Assembly (NCBI GenBank): GCA_048213135.1 | Contig: PS015010.1 | Location: forward strand, 372,001-436,000 | Direction of reading: 5' to 3' | DNA from: Reclinomonas americana ATCC 50394 | Taxonomy: Eukaryota | DNA: 64,000 bases | Shown: positions 21,140 to 56,432 of the stretch, piece by piece | Position numbering within the stretch: the stretch's first letter is position 1 | Layout of the letters: each line of letters starts with the position of its first letter | Notes under the pieces: model-generated | What the model was told of the DNA's origin: nothing | Database searches by the model: none | The model's input: only the letters and a program-made list of their open reading frames with translations | Translations under genes and position numbers: made by a program

Positions 21140-22462
21140 ATGAAAGTAATGAAATTTGGCGGTACCAGTGTAGGCAAACCGCAGCGTATGCATGAAGTGG
21201 CGAAACTGATCACTAGGGATGAGGAGAAAAAGATCGTGGTATTGTCGGCCCTGAGCGGTACTACCAACGCACTGGTGGAGATCAGTAGCAGTATGGCGGC
21301 GGGTGACCGTAATGCTGCCAAGCAACAGATCGACACGCTGGAACAACATTACCGTAATTTTATTGGTGAACTGCTGAGCGACGAAGCGGCGCTGGACAAA
21401 GCCAAAGCCGTTATCGCCGAACATTTCGAATTCCTTACCATCATACTCCGCATTTCTTTCAGCGAAGCGCTGAACAAAGACATACTGGCGCAGGGCGAAT
21501 TGCTCAGCACCAAATTGTTCTCCATTTACCTGGGCCAGGAAAAGATAGACCACGTATTGCTGCCTGCCCTCGACTTTATGACCATTGACAGTTATGACGA
21601 ACCGCAGGTAGGTGCTATTAAAGTAAAGCTGTCGCAGTTGCTGCAGAAGAACAAAGACACGAATATATTTATCACACAGGGCTACATCAGCCGCAATGCC
21701 AAAGGCGAAGTGGACAACCTCAAACGTGGTGGCAGTGATTACAGCGCATCGCTGATTGCCGCGGCAGTGAATGCCAGCGTTTGTGAAATATGGACCGATA
21801 TCGACGGTATGCACAACAACGATCCCCGCGTGGTAAAGAAGACCGTGGCCATAGAACAGATGAGTTTTGAGGAAGCTGCCGAGCTCGCTTATTTCGGCGC
21901 CAAAATATTACACCCTGCCAGCATATGGCCGGCGCAATATTTCAATGTGCCCGTACGGCTGCTCAACACCATGCAACCCGAAGCCAAAGGAACGCTGATC
22001 GCGGAAAAAGCCAACAGTGTAGGGGTTAAAGCCGTAGCGGCGAAAGATGGCATTACCGCTATCAAGATCAAAAGCAGCCGCATGCTGCTGGCCTATGGTT
22101 TTTTAAGGAAGATATTTGAAGTGTTTGAAAAATACCGCACGTCCATAGATATGATCACCACTTCGGAAGTGGCGGTTTCCGTAACCATCGACAACGACAT
22201 CAACCTGCAGGATATCACCCGCGAGCTGGAACCTTTTGGTACGGTGGAAATAGATACCAACCAGAGCATCGTATCTATTGTGGGTAATGAGATCACCGAA
22301 ACACCTGAAGTGATGCGTAAGTTATTTGAATCCCTTTCTGCCATACCGGTACGTATGGTGAGCTATGGCGGCAGCCGGCACAATATTTCCCTGCTCATTC
22401 CCAGGAGTTATAAGGAAGAAACGCTGCAGTTGCTGAATAAGGGGTTGTTTGGACTGGAGTAA
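21140..22462 (+). CDS. lysC: Aspartate kinase (monofunctional, C-terminal ACT domains)
   Basis: KFGGTSV, RGGSDYSA, WTDIDG...DPR and ELAYFGAKILHP. Confidence 0.95.
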   Translation: MKVMKFGGTSVGKPQRMHEVAKLITRDEEKKIVVLSALSGTTNALVEISSSMAAGDRNAAKQQIDTLEQHYRNFIGELLSDEAALDKAKAVIAEHFEFLTIILRISFSEALNKDILAQGELLSTKLFSIYLGQEKIDHVLLPALDFMTIDSYDEPQVGAIKVKLSQLLQKNKDTNIFITQGYISRNAKGEVDNLKRGGSDYSASLIAAAVNASVCEIWTDIDGMHNNDPRVVKKTVAIEQMSFEEAAELAYFGAKILHPASIWPAQYFNVPVRLLNTMQPEAKGTLIAEKANSVGVKAVAAKDGITAIKIKSSRMLLAYGFLRKIFEVFEKYRTSIDMITTSEVAVSVTIDNDINLQDITRELEPFGTVEIDTNQSIVSIVGNEITETPEVMRKLFESLSAIPVRMVSYGGSRHNISLLIPRSYKEETLQLLNKGLFGLE

Positions 22463-22590
22463 TATTTGAAAATGTGACGATTTGAAGATTTAAAAACGAA
22501 AGTTGCCAGGGATGTATACAGTTACCTTTTATGGGTGATGTACAAACCTGCGCCAATTTTCACATTGGCACATCTTCAAATTTTCAAATT
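22463..22590. repeat. Inverted pair of TTTGAA(A/G)A-type octamer repeats (family B)
   Basis: atttgaaaatgtgacgatttgaagat ... cacattggcacatcttcaaattttcaaatt; related copies at 20981-21018 and 46270-46354. Confidence 0.7.
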
Positions 22591-23053
22591 ATAAGGCTAT
22601 CCCCATCTTCTTATAAATAAAACTCATCAGCCAGGCCGGGCCGATCATGAGGAACTGGAGGTCTTTAAGGAAAGAGGGTTTTTTGCCTTCTACCTTATGG
22701 CCATAGAACTGCCCGATCCAGGCGAGAACAAATACTATAACACATACCAGCCACAGCGGCGCCAGTCCCAATCGTTCAATATAATAACAAATGGCCAGGC
22801 ACAGCAGCCCGAAGAGCAGCATGCCGATCCATAAGGTCCGCGACAGTGAAAAATAATAGATCACGACCAGGGTCATTACGATCATGGCAACATTCACCGG
22901 AACTCCCGCCAGGGCAAAAGGCAGCTTAATGCTGTACAAAAGTCCCACTACGGAGAAGAAAATGGCGGGGACACATATCCAGTGGATGGTTTTGTTGGTG
23001 GCGTTCTGGTGGCTTTCACCATACTCAGACAACCATTGCTGAATGGATTTCAT
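22589..23053 (-). CDS. DUF962 / Mpo1-like membrane protein
   Basis: YGESHQNATNKTIHWICVP and QFYGHKVEGKKPSF motifs. Confidence 0.9.
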   Translation of the reverse strand: MKSIQQWLSEYGESHQNATNKTIHWICVPAIFFSVVGLLYSIKLPFALAGVPVNVAMIVMTLVVIYYFSLSRTLWIGMLLFGLLCLAICYYIERLGLAPLWLVCVIVFVLAWIGQFYGHKVEGKKPSFLKDLQFLMIGPAWLMSFIYKKMGIAL

Positions 23054-23105
23054 AACAAGCGTTTTCCTTCCTTAAAGTTAATTAAAAACTTAATTAACAA
23101 TCTGT

Positions 23106-23136
23106 TTGCAACTAAATCCTGTTCTCCGACGTCTTA
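23106..23136 (+). promoter_or_regulatory. ECF-type promoter TTGCAAC-N17-CGTCTTA
   Basis: Matches TTGCAGC-N17-CGTCTTA at 44188-44218. It ends just before the repeated sRNA-like unit. Confidence 0.55.
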
Positions 23137-23138
23137 TA

Positions 23139-23199
23139 ATTGGTTTTTCATAGGATATTGGATTAGAACGGGGCAGGATTTCCATCCAGCCCCTTTTTT
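23139..23199 (+). ncRNA. Candidate small RNA, copy 1
   Basis: 25-nt block ATTGGTTTTTCATAGGATATTGGAT, then hairpin GGGGCAGGAT-ttcc-ATCCAGCCCC and T6. Confidence 0.55.
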
Positions 23200-23242
23200 A
23201 TGCCCCTATAAATCCGGGTCTTGCATTTTCCCGTACATAATT

Positions 23243-23304
23243 ATTGGTTTTTCATAGGATATTGGATAAATACGGGGCAGGATATCTATCCGGCCCCTCA
23301 CTTT
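23243..23304 (+). ncRNA. Candidate small RNA, copy 2
   Basis: Identical 25-nt block, then hairpin GGGGCAGGAT-atct-ATCCGGCCCC and tcacttt. Confidence 0.5.
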
Positions 23305-23328
23305 CAGGCTTTTGTGACAATGTTTGAA

Positions 23329-23370
23329 TACAGAAAAAGGGCTTCCTGTACGGGAAGCCCTTTTTCTGTA
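23329..23370. terminator. Bidirectional-type terminator downstream of queA
   Basis: TACAGAAAAAGGGCTTCC-tgtacg-GGAAGCCCTTTTTCTGTA. Confidence 0.85.
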
Positions 23371-23383
23371 TAAAGTGAAAATG

Positions 23384-24433
23384 TTATACGATCAGCATGG
23401 CGTCGCCATAACTGAAGAAACGGTATTTGTCTTTTATTGCTTTTTTATAAGCTTCCATCATCAGGTCATAACCGGCAAAAGCGCAGGCCATGATCAGCAG
23501 GCTGGTTTTGGGCAGGTGAAAATTGGTTACCAGCGCATCAGCGATGTTAAAATTATAAGGCGGGTGGATGAAGTGATTCGTCCAGCCTTCGGAAGGTTTG
23601 AGCATTTTTTGTGCGGTAAACGAAGATTCCATAGCCCGCATGGTAGTGGTGCCGATGGAACAGATGCGGTGACCGCCTTCTTTCGCTTTGTTCACGATCT
23701 TACAGGCAGCTTCCTCGATGCGGTAGTATTCAGCATCCATTTTATGTTTACTGAGGTCCTCCACTTCAATGGGCCTGAAAGTACCCAGGCCGGTGTGCAG
23801 GGTGGCTTCCGCGAAACGGATGCCTTTGATCTCAAGTCTTTTGATCAGTTCCTTACTGAAATGCAGACCGGCAGTAGGAGCCGCCACAGCGCCTTCGTGT
23901 TTGGCGTATACTGTTTGGTAACGTTCTTTGTCGTCTTCTTCAGGCTTACGCTTGATGTATTTGGGCAGCGGCGTTTCTCCCATGAAGTCCAGCATCTGGC
24001 GGAACTCTTCTTCGGTTCCGTCCCACAGGAAACGGATGGTACGACCACGGCTGGTGGTATTATCGATCACTTCGGCTACCAGTTCGTCACTTTCACCGAA
24101 ATAGAGTTTGTTGCCCACGCGGATCTTACGGGCGGGGTCAACGATAACGTCCCAGAGTTTATTGGCTTTATTGAGTTCCCTTAACAGGAATACTTCAATT
24201 TTAGCGCCGGTCTTTTCCTTGCGGCCGTACATACGGGCAGGAAATACCTTGGTGTTGTTCACAACAAAAACATCTTTGTCGTCGAAGTATTCAATGATGT
24301 CTTTAAAATACCTGTTCTCGATCTGCCCGGTAGCACGGTGAACCACCATCATGCGGCTGTCTTCGCGTTTTTTGGTAGGATGCTGTGCAATGAGGTTAAG
24401 CGGGAGATCAAAACGGAATTGGGATAATTTCAT
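23384..24433 (-). CDS. queA: S-adenosylmethionine:tRNA ribosyltransferase-isomerase
   Basis: [24 protein letters not shown] and [12 protein letters not shown]. Confidence 0.97.
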
Positions 24434-24692
24434 GCAACAAATTTTGTTTTACAATGACTGTTACATGCCTTGTACTGTAGGTTTTACAGAGATCTGTTCC
24501 CGGGAGGTCCGGGACATTTATCATGTTACGGCATGATTTAAAGTGGGCAAAGGTACGATATTTTAAGCATTGCACCACACAGATATGTCGTTTTTTTAAT
24601 ACAAAAAAGAATTCGTTAAAGCTGGTACCGTAATTTTGTGCTTCAGCCACTTCTGCTCAACTTTATGGAAAGCCCTGTCAATATCAGCCATT

Positions 24693-53938: not shown

Positions 53939-55036
53939 TTAGTTACCCAGTACCATAAACACGTAATCTTCCAGTTTCTTCACCTGCTGTGTACGTTCCA
54001 TTCCTTTGAGTGCGGAACTGGAAGGAATTTTGATATGAGCAGAAGCGGTATCTGATTTTTTCAGTTCATCTACCAGCTTGAAGATGTTCTTCGATTTGGC
54101 GGCATAAACAACGCCGTCGGCTGTAAGGTTTTTAGAAGTGATGATGCCGATCACTTCACCGTTCCTGTTCAGCACGGGGCCGCCACTGTTACCGGGGTTG
54201 GCCGAAACGGAGAGCTGGTAAGCGGTGGAGTCACCGTCGTTGCCCGATTTGGCGCTGAGGTAACCTTCACCGTATACGATCTCGCTGCGGGGATAGCCCA
54301 GTGTAAAAATAGCTTCACCAAGATCGGACGTGCTCTTCCGGATGCTGTAAGGCAATGAAGAGATGGTTTTAAAAGCGGTATCCGTGATTTTTAAGATCGC
54401 CAGGTCGGCAGCAGGATCGGTATGCACGGCTACAGCAGAATAGATGCCTTTATTGCTTTGTACATAGATGTTCCTCATGCGGTTCACCACGTGGGCATTG
54501 GTAACAATATAACCGTTGCCATCAACGAGGAAACCGGTAGCCCGGAATTCAGCAGCCGGGATGGGCTTGGCCGATGGAGTGTTGTGGGCACCATCCAGGA
54601 TCTTATCAACCTTGGTATTCGTCTTTTTGATTTCGCCGATCAGTTCAGTGATGTTGTTATTGCCTACTTTATTATTGTAGCTAACAACAAGCGCTGTTGT
54701 AAATAAAGAAACCAGGCCCGCGATGCTGGCGGCCACGGCGATGTTGCGTTTGTATTTTTTCCAGAGGTAAACAACTTTGGCTTTGCCGCTGAGCTGGGGC
54801 CTGCTGATGAGCCCTTCTTCGGCCAGCTTGTTTTCCACCTCGTAGAGTGAATGTTTGAAAGCTTTGATACCCGCATGACGATCCAGCTCGTTGTAGAGAA
54901 AACTATGCTCTACCACCAGTTGGTCCATTTCGGGATTATTTTTCCGCAGGTCTTCAAAAAAGGCTTTTTCCTGGGGTGTCATCTCGCCCTTCAGGTACCT
55001 TTCCACCGCTTCCATGAGTAAAATCTCGTCCATCAT
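53939..55036 (-). CDS. Anti-sigma-like N-terminus + TM + trypsin-like (S1) serine protease, no PDZ
   Basis: ERYLKGEMTPQEKAFFE N-domain; TM IAVAASIAGLVSLF; triad TNAH / DLAI / GNSGGP. Confidence 0.85.
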   Translation of the reverse strand: MMDEILLMEAVERYLKGEMTPQEKAFFEDLRKNNPEMDQLVVEHSFLYNELDRHAGIKAFKHSLYEVENKLAEEGLISRPQLSGKAKVVYLWKKYKRNIAVAASIAGLVSLFTTALVVSYNNKVGNNNITELIGEIKKTNTKVDKILDGAHNTPSAKPIPAAEFRATGFLVDGNGYIVTNAHVVNRMRNIYVQSNKGIYSAVAVHTDPAADLAILKITDTAFKTISSLPYSIRKSTSDLGEAIFTLGYPRSEIVYGEGYLSAKSGNDGDSTAYQLSVSANPGNSGGPVLNRNGEVIGIITSKNLTADGVVYAAKSKNIFKLVDELKKSDTASAHIKIPSSSALKGMERTQQVKKLEDYVFMVLGN

Positions 55037-55599
55037 GATCCGTTTTTATATTGAGCAAAAAACAGTTTTTTCAGTCGCATCAGGCACTTGTACTTCTGTG
55101 TTTTTGCATTGTCTGCATTGGTATATCCAAAATCTGCCGCTATTTCCTGCATATTCTTGTGCTGGATATAGTAGGCGTCGAGCAGGCTTTTACAGGGTTC
55201 CCCGATCTTGGCCATGGCGCTTTCCATAAGCAGGAAATCGTTGTTCTTTTTTTCGTGCATCTCCATCTCTTCTTCCACGGGAACGGTATCTTCCAGCATT
55301 TCTACCTGGCCAGCGTAGCGGTTCATTTGCTGTAATCGCTTGAGCCACAGTCTTCTGCAAACAGAAAACAAGTAAGTTCTTAACTGGCTGTGCAGTTCAA
55401 AACTGCCCGAAACCGCCTTTTCATACAGCACGATCATCGCCTCCTGGAAAAGATCTCTCGCCTCATCGGCATTACCACTGTTATTCAGCACAAATGCCTG
55501 AATAACAGCATAGTTGTCCCGGTATATCGTTTCAATAGCCTGCCTGTCATTCAGCGCCAGCCCTTCCAGTAACAATTTTTCCTGTTCTAAGTTGCTCAC
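55033..55599 (-). CDS. ECF sigma-70 factor
   Basis: 188 aa; DLFQEAMIVLY, TYLFSVCRRLW region 2; EIAADFGY...KTQKYKC region 4. Confidence 0.92.
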   Translation of the reverse strand: MSNLEQEKLLLEGLALNDRQAIETIYRDNYAVIQAFVLNNSGNADEARDLFQEAMIVLYEKAVSGSFELHSQLRTYLFSVCRRLWLKRLQQMNRYAGQVEMLEDTVPVEEEMEMHEKKNNDFLLMESAMAKIGEPCKSLLDAYYIQHKNMQEIAADFGYTNADNAKTQKYKCLMRLKKLFFAQYKNGS

Positions 55600-55737: not shown

Positions 55738-55935
55738 ATGAAAAAAGTAATCTTAGCTCTGGCAGTTGTATCTGTATCTTTTGCAGCTTGCAACAGCGGC
55801 GACAAAAAAACTGAAACTCCTGCAACTGATTCTCCTAAAGTAGAAACTCCTGCTGTTCCAGTTGATACCGCTACTAAAGCTCCAGCTGACACTGCTGCTA
55901 AAGCCCCAGTTGCTGACACTGCCGCTAAAAAATAA
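55738..55935 (+). CDS. Small lipoprotein (65 aa)
   Basis: Lipobox FAAC; A/P/T/K-rich mature part with three DTA motifs; strongly T/A-ending codons. Confidence 0.85.
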   Translation: MKKVILALAVVSVSFAACNSGDKKTETPATDSPKVETPAVPVDTATKAPADTAAKAPVADTAAKK

Positions 55936-56254: not shown

Positions 56255-56285
56255 TTTGTTTTTTCAAACGGGTTACCTACTTTTG
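56255..56285 (+). promoter_or_regulatory. Bacteroidota housekeeping promoter TTTG-N19-TACTTTTG
   Basis: Matches the -33/-7 consensus; the leader ATG lies 5 bp downstream. Confidence 0.7.
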
Positions 56286-56290
56286 TTTCA

Positions 56291-56371
56291 ATGACGACCA
56301 AAAACACCAATACCTGGTTTTATTTTTACTACTATTTTACCAATAGGCCGGGTACCTGTGTTATCAACTGA
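56291..56371 (+). CDS. Attenuator leader peptide MTTKNTNTWFYFYYYFTNRPGTCVIN
   Basis: 26 codons with 8 consecutive aromatic codons, directly upstream of the aromatic biosynthesis operon. Confidence 0.9.
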   Translation: MTTKNTNTWFYFYYYFTNRPGTCVIN

Positions 56372-56394
56372 AATATCAACTAAATAACATACTG

Positions 56395-56428
56395 AAGTCC
56401 CGGCACCAATTGCCGGGACTTTTTTTTT
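56395..56428 (+). terminator. Attenuator terminator hairpin
   Basis: AAGTCCCGGCA-ccaat-TGCCGGGACTT plus T run, ending 4 bp before the pheA ATG. Confidence 0.9.
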
Positions 56429-56432
56429 GCAT

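What the first reader, a model, noticed from the sequence alone, without database searches (positions are those of the whole stretch)
23106..23304. Two tandem sibling sRNA-like units behind an ECF promoter, with a seed complementary to ATGAAAAA start regions
Seen: in the DUF962-queA gap two ~60-nt units lie 104 bp apart. They share an identical 25-nt block (ATTGGTTTTTCATAGGATATTGGAT) followed by a GC hairpin GGGGCAGGAT/ATCC(A/G)GCCCC and a T-rich tail. Differences fall only in the linker, loop and the unpaired internal position, which is what selection on RNA structure would give. Unit 1 begins right after TTGCAAC-N17-CGTCTTA. No useful ORF exists (minus strand gives only MKNQ(L)*). Inference: sibling trans-acting sRNAs. 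The UUUUUCAU seed is antisense to AUGAAAAA, the start of many exported Bacteroidota proteins (here 2143, 5166, 38842, 55738), which suggests an ECF-driven repressor of envelope-protein translation analogous to MicA/RybB. A protein-titrating RNA is an alternative. I do not recognise it as a named Rfam family but cannot search.
Basis: partly seen in the sequence, partly recalled or inferred. Interest (0 to 1): 0.72.

Follow-up and report, generated by a model that had tools for sequence, protein, structure and literature searches.

The report
FopS-like small RNA pair, Chitinophagaceae
These two short repeats are most likely genes for ~58-base regulatory RNAs of a multicopy family in Chitinophagaceae bacteria, related to the start-codon-blocking FopS RNAs of gut Bacteroides; one copy appears to be under a stress sigma factor, and the same genome holds a long RNA with many docking sites that could soak them up.

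Summary
The two units are real. They belong to a multicopy family: 39 of 61 family genomes carry the 22-nt 5' block, with 104 of 116 matches exact. This genome has 5 canonical copies and at least 2 variants. The hairpin covaries, and promoter boxes sit at a fixed distance before the block.

The closest known family is FopS (RF04319). The seed and layout are shared, but the Rfam cut-off is not met.

Unit 1's promoter fits the predicted ECF21 motif, and 7 of 8 orthologs at this locus keep an ECF-like box. Unit 2 is a local duplicate with a weak promoter and a weak terminator.

The seed's first half complements AUGAAAAA starts, which are enriched in signal-peptide genes (21/107 vs 6/295). Its second half is not explained by mRNA starts. 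It is explained by a conserved ~410-nt RNA with many start-codon-less docking sites, a lead from earlier scan notes that I tested here.

Likely mechanism: translational repression of exported proteins, buffered by a sponge. Expression is not shown. The scan found this family and the sponge before on other DNA.

The parts
23107..23135 (+). ECF21-type promoter of unit 1 (-35 TGCAAC, 17-nt spacer, -10 CGTCTT)
   Evidence: Sequence. Predicted ECF21 motif is GCAACC/CGTCT (PMC7826278 supplement). 10 such sites on contigs C1+C2 vs 1.6 expected. ECF-like box in 7 of 8 syntenic orthologs.
23142..23199 (+). sRNA unit 1 (~58 nt): invariant 5' block 23142-23163, linker, hairpin 23170-23193, U6 tail; predicted +1 = G23142
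   Evidence: 77.6 bits with family model R1, which includes it. Fold. Covariation in the family. The start is inferred from the fixed promoter spacing.
23234..23241 (+). Slot where family members carry the -7 box; unit 2 has TACATAAT, only 3 of 6 matches to TAnnTTTG (weak or doubtful promoter)
23246..23304 (+). sRNA unit 2: local tandem duplicate with the same seed, hairpin 23274-23297 and a degenerate tail; may read on to the queA terminator (~125 nt)
   Evidence: 68.5 bits with R1. All 8 syntenic orthologs examined have one copy only. Weak GibS model match over 23245-23370 (27.8 bits vs cut-off 115).
23328..23371 (.). Strong bidirectional terminator-like hairpin ending queA; possible 3' end of a read-through from unit 2
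   Evidence: 22-nt arms, 95% complementary; fold
22589..23053 (-). Flanking gene, Mpo1-like / DUF962 membrane protein (divergent)
   Evidence: PF06127, E 6e-21
23384..24433 (-). Flanking gene queA (convergent)
   Evidence: PF02547, E 1e-136

Best explanation
Units 1 and 2 are genes for ~58-nt trans-acting sRNAs of a Chitinophagaceae branch of the FopS/GibS superfamily. Shown by sequence analysis: each family member is a unit of promoter, invariant 22-nt 5' block, hairpin and U-tract, and paralogs with the same block sit behind different promoter types (sigmaA-like, sigma54-like, ECF-like); the copy at queA carries the ECF21-type promoter. Inferred: (1) nt 1-10 pair across the start codon of mRNAs beginning AUGAAAAA, mostly exported MKK.. 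proteins including T9SS cargo, and block initiation as FopS does. (2) The whole block, including UUGGA and the 5' GG, pairs with the repeated UCC/UCCAA..AAACC modules of a long non-coding RNA that nearly always lack a start codon; this RNA titrates the sRNAs and sets a threshold. (3) Unit 1 feeds envelope-type ECF signals into this shared pool. Unit 2 is a recent dosage duplicate of doubtful independent expression.
For: Family and copy number. Inner stem 99.2% paired, 40 double-sided changes, 0/500 shuffles as high. The + strand is favoured: hairpin more stable on + in 121 of 161 copies, median 7 T after the stem on + vs 4 on -. TAnnTTYR exactly 4 nt before the block in 78 of 160 copies and a sigma54-like box in 12 of 160, controls 0; FopS copies show the same 4-nt spacing. 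The FopS consensus shares GUUUUUCAUAG and UAUURGAUUU with the block (PMC11697453 supplement; alignment). Bridging forms occur in Chitinophagaceae genomes. FopS blocks initiation next to the start codon (PMC11697453). ATGAAAAA starts: 21 of 107 signal-peptide-like vs 6 of 295 other genes; the real seed's preference for signal-peptide starts beats 100 of 100 shuffles. Partner RNA: 14 perfect 7-mer complements vs background mean 1.07 and max 10 in 2960 windows, 0 on the other strand; site energy sum -132 vs -46+-20 (0/60); best site -25.2 kcal/mol. 7 homologous loci from 5 genomes hold 61 sites, only 1 containing AUGAAAA. Two small RRM proteins are on the bacterial contigs.
Against: No expression evidence: only assembled contigs could be laid. 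The RF04319 cut-off is not reached. Start regions as a whole pair no better than mid-gene controls (-9.1 vs -9.3 kcal/mol), and the count of strong sites is not clearly above shuffles (25 vs 14.6+-7.6; 11/100 as high). The second half of the block adds nothing to mRNA pairing (336/500; AATCCAAT before ATGAAAA 44 matches vs anagrams 33 and 41). No recurrent target family among 40 fetched hits (one related pair). The seed is predicted partly self-paired in unit 1 (unpaired probability 0.1-0.3 at nt 2-9). The cognate ECF was not identified. The partner RNA was found by BLAST in only 5 of 61 genomes, against 39 of 61 for the sRNA.
Confidence: 0.68

Rival explanations
1. The long multi-site RNA is the real target or partner. 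The small RNAs act mainly on it (antagonist, or building block of an RNA-RNA or RNP scaffold), and mRNA repression is minor.
For: The best predicted duplex is with the long RNA (-25.2) rather than with any of 420 gene starts (best -23.3 and -20.7). Only the long RNA explains invariance of both halves of the block. mRNA-level tests of the second half were negative.
Against: The seed spells the exact complement of a start codon plus Lys-Lys. Relatives with the same seed are proven translation repressors (PMC11697453, PMC7366714). Most long-RNA sites are imperfect and lack the AUG, as decoys would.
Confidence: 0.15
2. Protein-titrating RNA: the invariant block and conserved UUUCUA-type loop bind an RNA-binding protein (for example an RbpB-like RRM protein), and base pairing is incidental.
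For: The loop is conserved in sequence (TTCT in 73 of 120 copies). Two RRM_1 proteins lie on C1/C2. FopS RNAs are bound by RbpB (PMC11697453).
Against: Strand-specific arrays of complementary sites are conserved across genera. Each RNA has one motif, not the repeated motifs of a decoy.
Confidence: 0.08
3. A DNA-level repeat (REP/MITE) or a recurrent bidirectional terminator, not an RNA gene.
For: Multiple dispersed copies. 9 distinct tandem pairs. Several copies lie head-on to convergent genes.
Against: Only 1-10 copies per genome. The unit is asymmetric, without terminal inverted repeats. Promoter boxes lie at a fixed distance. The position is kept beside queA/DUF962 in 8 other genomes. Strand bias and covariation.
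Confidence: 0.04
4. The functional strand is the minus strand, encoding a short MKN.. peptide.
For: The minus strand reads like a Bacteroidota start region followed by ATGAAAAAC.
Against: The frame is not conserved past three or four codons: median 17 aa, 43 of 161 at most 10 aa, many different fifth residues; here 4-5 aa.
Confidence: 0.02

Closest known systems
FopS, family of paralogous sRNAs of Bacteroides thetaiotaomicron (Rfam RF04319; PMC11697453)
   Same: Multicopy RNAs of ~60-70 nt: single 5' stretch plus terminator hairpin. 11-nt identical seed GUUUUUCAUAG and a similar UAUURGAUUU extension. Start 4 nt after a -7 box. Seed complements start-codon regions. RRM proteins present in the host.
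   Different: Below the Rfam cut-off (family copies ~20-22 bits vs 56). 2-nt insertion in the seed, GG rather than GUG 5' end, no AAGGUUAA segment, different two-part hairpin with a UUCU-type loop. Found in Chitinophagaceae, whereas the paper reports Bacteroidaceae only. Paralogs sit behind three promoter types, whereas all FopS use sigmaABfr. A multi-site complementary RNA is present, and none was found in print.
GibS (Rfam RF04182; PMC7366714)
   Same: R1 seed at the 5' end. A weak model match spans unit 2 plus the downstream terminator (27.8 bits). Non-housekeeping promoter, like unit 1.
   Different: GibS is about 145 nt (model 142 positions) with a second seed R2. The score is far below the cut-off of 115.
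ECF21 sigma factors (Das1/Das2 of B. thetaiotaomicron; PMC7826278, PMC13088901)
   Same: The predicted motif GCAACC / CGTCT fits unit 1's promoter and 9 more sites on the two bacterial contigs.
   Different: The motif is a prediction in the cited supplement. The cognate sigma was not identified here, and no sRNA is mentioned in the Dma2 paper's main text (0 occurrences).
MicA/RybB/MicL of the enterobacterial sigmaE response (recalled, not from a call)
   Same: ECF-driven small RNA predicted to damp envelope protein synthesis (unit 1 only).
   Different: No sequence relation. Hfq-dependent in Proteobacteria. Not a multicopy invariant family with a multi-site sponge.

Membership tests
FopS (RF04319) | Score at or above the Rfam gathering threshold (56 bits) | tested here: not met
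   0 of 5 genomes including G000 have a match over the cut-off; best 30.4 bits, canonical copies ~20-22. Not listed for the window at E<=10. True FopS controls score 59.7-80.9.
FopS (RF04319) | GibS R1 seed at the 5' end | tested here: met
   GUUUUUCAUAG identical to the FopS 70% consensus and to Rfam-positive copies
FopS (RF04319) | Extended seed R1' as in the consensus | tested here: inconclusive
   UAUURGAUUU is shared after a 2-nt insertion; the following AAGGUUAA is absent here but present in similar form in bridging copies L122, L130
FopS (RF04319) | Single-stranded 5' stretch plus Rho-independent terminator hairpin | tested here: met
   Hairpin covaries with a U-tract. A weak 5' helix is predicted but never varies, so it has no covariation support.
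FopS (RF04319) | Multicopy in the genome | tested here: met
   5 canonical copies and 2 variants in the 460 kb scanned
FopS (RF04319) | All copies driven by sigmaABfr (TAnnTTTG) promoters | tested here: not met
   78 of 160 copies have a strict -7 box, 12 of 160 a sigma54-like box, and unit 1 with its orthologs an ECF-like box
FopS (RF04319) | Binds RbpB; represses translation of susC-type mRNAs | not testable with these tools
   Two RRM_1 genes are present on C1/C2; binding and repression need experiments
GibS (RF04182) | Gathering score 115 and second seed R2 | tested here: not met
   27.8 bits, E 0.38
ECF21 regulon | GCAACC -35 and CGTCT -10 | tested here: met
   GCAACT-N16-CGTCT at 23108-23134, one mismatch. 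10 sites on C1+C2 vs 1.6 expected, P 6e-6.
ECF21 regulon | Cognate autoregulated ECF21 sigma with anti-sigma in +1 | tested here: inconclusive
   No convincing site upstream of 25 sigma genes scanned; two loose matches. One lies inside the first codons of a sigma gene that has a one-helix partner in +1 and sits beside a variant sRNA.
REP/MITE | High copy number, terminal inverted repeats, variable positions | tested here: not met
   1-10 copies per genome; no terminal repeats; syntenic in 8 genomes

The most novel reading that the evidence does not exclude
Chitinophagaceae run an RNA-only signal integrator for protein export. One invariant anti-'Met-Lys-Lys' seed is expressed from paralogs wired to the housekeeping sigma, sigma54 and ECF sigmas (this locus being the ECF21 input). 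It throttles translation of the whole class of signal-peptide mRNAs by reading the codons of the signal peptide's N-region. A family of long RNAs with 3-18 start-codon-less docking sites sets the threshold, like CsrB but by base pairing.
Probability: 0.35. Interest if true: 0.82.

Novelty: new variant of a known kind. Interest (0 to 1): 0.6.

Why it matters
FopS has been described only in gut Bacteroidaceae, under one sigma factor. This locus extends the superfamily to environmental Chitinophagaceae. It names a candidate small-RNA arm for ECF21 sigma factors, which control outer-membrane vesicles in Bacteroides. It also ties the family to a multi-site RNA sponge, which explains why 22 nt stay unchanged across paralogs and genera. 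If true, it gives a testable circuit for how Hfq-less Bacteroidota ration secreted and outer-membrane proteins. The basic mechanism (blocking the start codon) is known, which caps the score.

Tried and rejected
Rfam scan of 22000-24500: nothing at cut-off. The generic sigma70 promoter and terminator scan found nothing; it does not cover Bacteroidota promoters or interrupted stems.

Reads: four runs were laid, all as contigs. They show that relatives at roughly 94-99% identity span both units without gaps, but say nothing on expression.

A strict promoter-plus-seed pattern was too tight (1 of 151 genomes); synteny was taken from tblastn on fetched loci instead.

Specific mRNA targets:
- The first target pattern looked enriched over its reversed control, but two anagram controls gave similar counts (33 and 41 vs 44).
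- A TCCAA enrichment (4/76 vs 1/344) vanished once the three motif-selected loci were dropped (1/71 vs 1/331).
- No near-perfect (<=3 mismatch) mRNA target was found in G000.

The search for an autoregulated cognate ECF failed. REP/MITE, plain terminator and antisense peptide were rejected (see rivals). About 12% of the bacterial part of the assembly was read, so variant copies and targets are lower bounds.

Full report
SETTING. The window lies on contig C2 of a 108-Mb, 16,441-contig assembly. C1 and C2 (2.33 and 2.05 Mb) carry bacterial genes. The flanking proteins are 71-75% (DUF962) and up to 98% (part of QueA) identical to those of records titled Chitinophagaceae, so I read the source as a Chitinophagaceae bacterium within a larger assembly (inference). 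The gap lies between an Mpo1-like/DUF962 gene and queA, both on the minus strand.

OBSERVATION. Confirmed: two units 104 nt apart, with 25 identical bases, hairpins at 23170-23193 and 23274-23297, and TGCAAC-N17-CGTCTT before unit 1. Unit 1 ends in six T. Unit 2 ends in TCACTTT and is followed 30 nt later by the strong queA terminator. The minus strand gives only 4-5-residue frames.

A FAMILY, NOT A LOCAL ODDITY. G000 holds 5 copies of the block (C1: 2, C2: 3; reversed control 0). Two variants turned up in the 460 kb of fetched own-genome stretches (43.7 and 31.1 bits). An exact 20-mer scan of the genome collection stopped at its limit with 110 stretches. Of the 80 titles shown, 60 name Chitinophagales, Chitinophagaceae or genera I recall as such, and 20 are generic Bacteroidota, Sphingobacteriales or unnamed. 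In 61 genomes of the family, 39 carry the 22-mer with at most one mismatch (1-10 copies; 104 of 116 matches exact; control 0), so the invariance is not an artefact of exact searching. In a phylum-wide sample a looser pattern hit 22 of 401 genomes; these hits include true FopS copies and at least two that are mRNA start regions read on the other strand. Five viral contigs carry the block.

RNA EVIDENCE. I aligned 96 distinct copies out of 118 (2 more were skipped at contig ends). The inner 4-bp stem is 99.2% paired, with 40 double-sided changes; 0 of 500 shuffles and no slid control come near (relatedness inflates such counts). Among 161 distinct copies the hairpin is more stable on the + strand in 121, with a median of 7 T behind it versus 4 on the other strand. 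Promoter boxes stand at a fixed distance: TAnnTTYR exactly 4 nt before the GG in 78 of 160 copies and a sigma54-like box (consensus recalled) in 12 of 160, with 0 for both at a control position. TAnnTTTG is the Bacteroidetes -7 box (PMC7366714, passages). FopS copies show the same 4-nt spacing before their GUG, so +1 is probably G23142. No expression data could be had: all runs laid were contigs.

THIS LOCUS IS THE ECF-TYPE MEMBER. Eight other loci have a copy next to queA or DUF962. Seven of the 8 carry an ECF-like CAAY-N16/17-(C/A)GTYT box against 4 of 151 other copies (Fisher P 6e-9; the pattern was written after seeing the data). The ECF reclassification gives GCAACC/CGTCT as the predicted ECF21 motif (PMC7826278, supplement passages, file cut when stored). 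GCAACY-N16-CGTCT occurs 10 times on C1+C2 against 1.6 expected. The six strictest sites point into intergenic DNA or gene starts, among them a T9SS-tail protein and one of the variant sRNAs. ECF21 members Das1/Das2 control outer-membrane vesicles in B. thetaiotaomicron (PMC13088901, passages). I could not identify the cognate sigma (25 loci scanned). All 8 orthologous loci have a single copy, so unit 2 is a local duplicate; its -7 slot matches only 3 of 6. Tandem pairs recur in the family at other loci (9 distinct pairs, 104-279 nt apart).

RELATION TO KNOWN RNAs. Rfam gives nothing at cut-off; a weak GibS match covers the seed. FopS (PMC11697453: abstract, sections 8, 10, 12, 13, 14, 28, passages and supplement rows) is a 14-member family with the GibS R1 seed and a terminator. 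It is reported from Bacteroidaceae, driven by sigmaABfr, and blocks initiation beside the start codon. Its consensus shares GUUUUUCAUAG and UAUURGAUUU with our block. RF04319 is not reached in 5 genomes (best 30.4 vs 56 bits), while true FopS copies score 60-81. Recognition is weak but mutual: my model scores FopS copies at 16-19 bits. Chitinophagaceae genomes hold bridging forms with a FopS-like 5' end and middle but our hairpin loop (31-37 bits). I read this as a homologous branch, not a member; convergence on the same targets is not excluded. Five literature searches (listings and abstract starts only) showed no description of the Chitinophagaceae branch or of a multi-site sponge; subscription papers and bioRxiv supplements were not visible.

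TARGETS. I called 420 genes in 524 kb, about 12% of C1+C2, with my own gene finder and a simple signal-peptide rule. ATGAAAAA starts 24 of 114 signal-peptide-like genes and 7 of 306 others; without three motif-selected loci the counts are 21/107 and 6/295 (P 1e-8). The real seed prefers signal-peptide starts more than 100 of 100 shuffles. Against this: start regions overall pair no better than mid-gene controls, the second half of the block adds nothing (336/500), family-wide motif counts equal anagram controls (44 vs 33 and 41), and no recurring target family emerged from 40 of 44 hits fetched. So only the first ~10 nt are explained by mRNAs. Plausible individual targets in G000 are two divergent T9SS-tail genes (-16.8, -15.1) and a GT2 glycosyltransferase (-20.7).

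THE PARTNER RNA. Earlier scan notes pointed to a ~410-nt RNA at about C2:844,760, which I tested. Its minus strand has 14 perfect 7-mer complements of the block (other strand 0; background mean 1.07, maximum 10 in 2,960 windows). It has 7-8 sites, with summed energy -132 against -46+-20 for shuffles (0/60). Its best site (-25.2) beats all 420 gene starts. It has no Rfam match. BLAST found relatives in 5 of 61 genomes (8 loci). The 7 non-overlapping loci share a -7 box, a closing helix and 3-18 docking sites each: 61 in all, of which 1 contains AUGAAAA, with 7-38 7-mers against 0-2 on the other strand. These loci were found by their 5' part, so the first sites are partly selected; the downstream ones are not. 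The sites pair both the 5' GGUU and the UUGGA half, which explains what mRNAs do not.

MECHANISM AND VERDICT. Shown: gene-like anatomy, covariation, strand, three promoter classes, synteny, and complementarity to AUGAAAAA starts and to a conserved multi-site RNA. Inferred: transcription, ECF21 control of unit 1, translational repression of exported proteins, and titration by the long RNA (0.68 together). Rivals: the long RNA as the main partner (0.15), protein titration (0.08), DNA repeat or terminator (0.04), antisense peptide (0.02). It works like FopS but fails the FopS membership score: a new variant of a known kind. The scan has noted the family and the sponge before on other DNA. What this locus adds is the ECF21-type input, the recent duplicate, and the negative mRNA tests that make the sponge the better explanation for the block's second half. 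Interest 0.6.

Noticed in passing
window 56291-56432 (+): A 26-codon leader peptide rich in Trp/Phe/Tyr, followed by a GC hairpin and U-tract, directly before a prephenate-dehydratase-like gene (56433) and further aromatic biosynthesis genes: looks like an aromatic amino-acid attenuator.
   Followed up: partly
window 55738-55935 (+): 65-aa lipoprotein-like ORF with Ala/Pro/Thr/Lys repeats, divergent from an ECF sigma (55033-55599) and a trypsin-like protein (53939-55036); GTAACCC/GGGTTACC boxes recur in the gap and at 56270.
   Followed up: no
window 22461-22590: AT-rich imperfect inverted repeat after the aspartokinase gene; many unrelated contigs align to it with loose ends, as for a dispersed REP-like element.
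   Followed up: no
L267:7237-7420 (+) (G000 C1 ~922,236-922,419): A second ECF21-type promoter with a variant family unit ~90 nt downstream (possibly a ~155-nt RNA), head-on to an ECF sigma / one-helix partner / GLPGLI-like operon. The sigma gene has a GCAAC-N17-CGTCTTA match inside its first codons.
   Followed up: partly
L287:9247-9308 (+) (G000 C1 ~469,247); also L244, L252, L255-L257: A distinct conserved subfamily with a changed second half of the seed, seen in several genomes: a possible test for seed-sponge covariation.
   Followed up: partly
L003 (G000 C1 ~580,000): A canonical paralog lies directly downstream of gldN of the T9SS/gliding operon.
   Followed up: partly
L357:1260-1690 (-) (G000 C2 ~844,760-845,190); homologs L358-L364: Multi-site RNA complementary to the seed; one genome (G187) has three separate paralogs on one contig.
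   Followed up: yes
L150 and L152: Start regions of long signal-peptide ORFs in other Bacteroidota are near-perfect complements of the whole block (-28.7, -31.6 kcal/mol), a hint that the seed may derive from, or track, such start regions.
   Followed up: no
L352, L353, L355, L356 (viral contigs): The invariant 20-mer joined to a different linker and hairpin on four viral contigs; a fifth (L354) has the canonical form.
   Followed up: no
L300:2502-2900 (-): The start region of a small 132-aa ORF gave the strongest gene-start duplex in the sample (-23.3); the start codon call (GTG) is uncertain and no Pfam family matched.
   Followed up: partly
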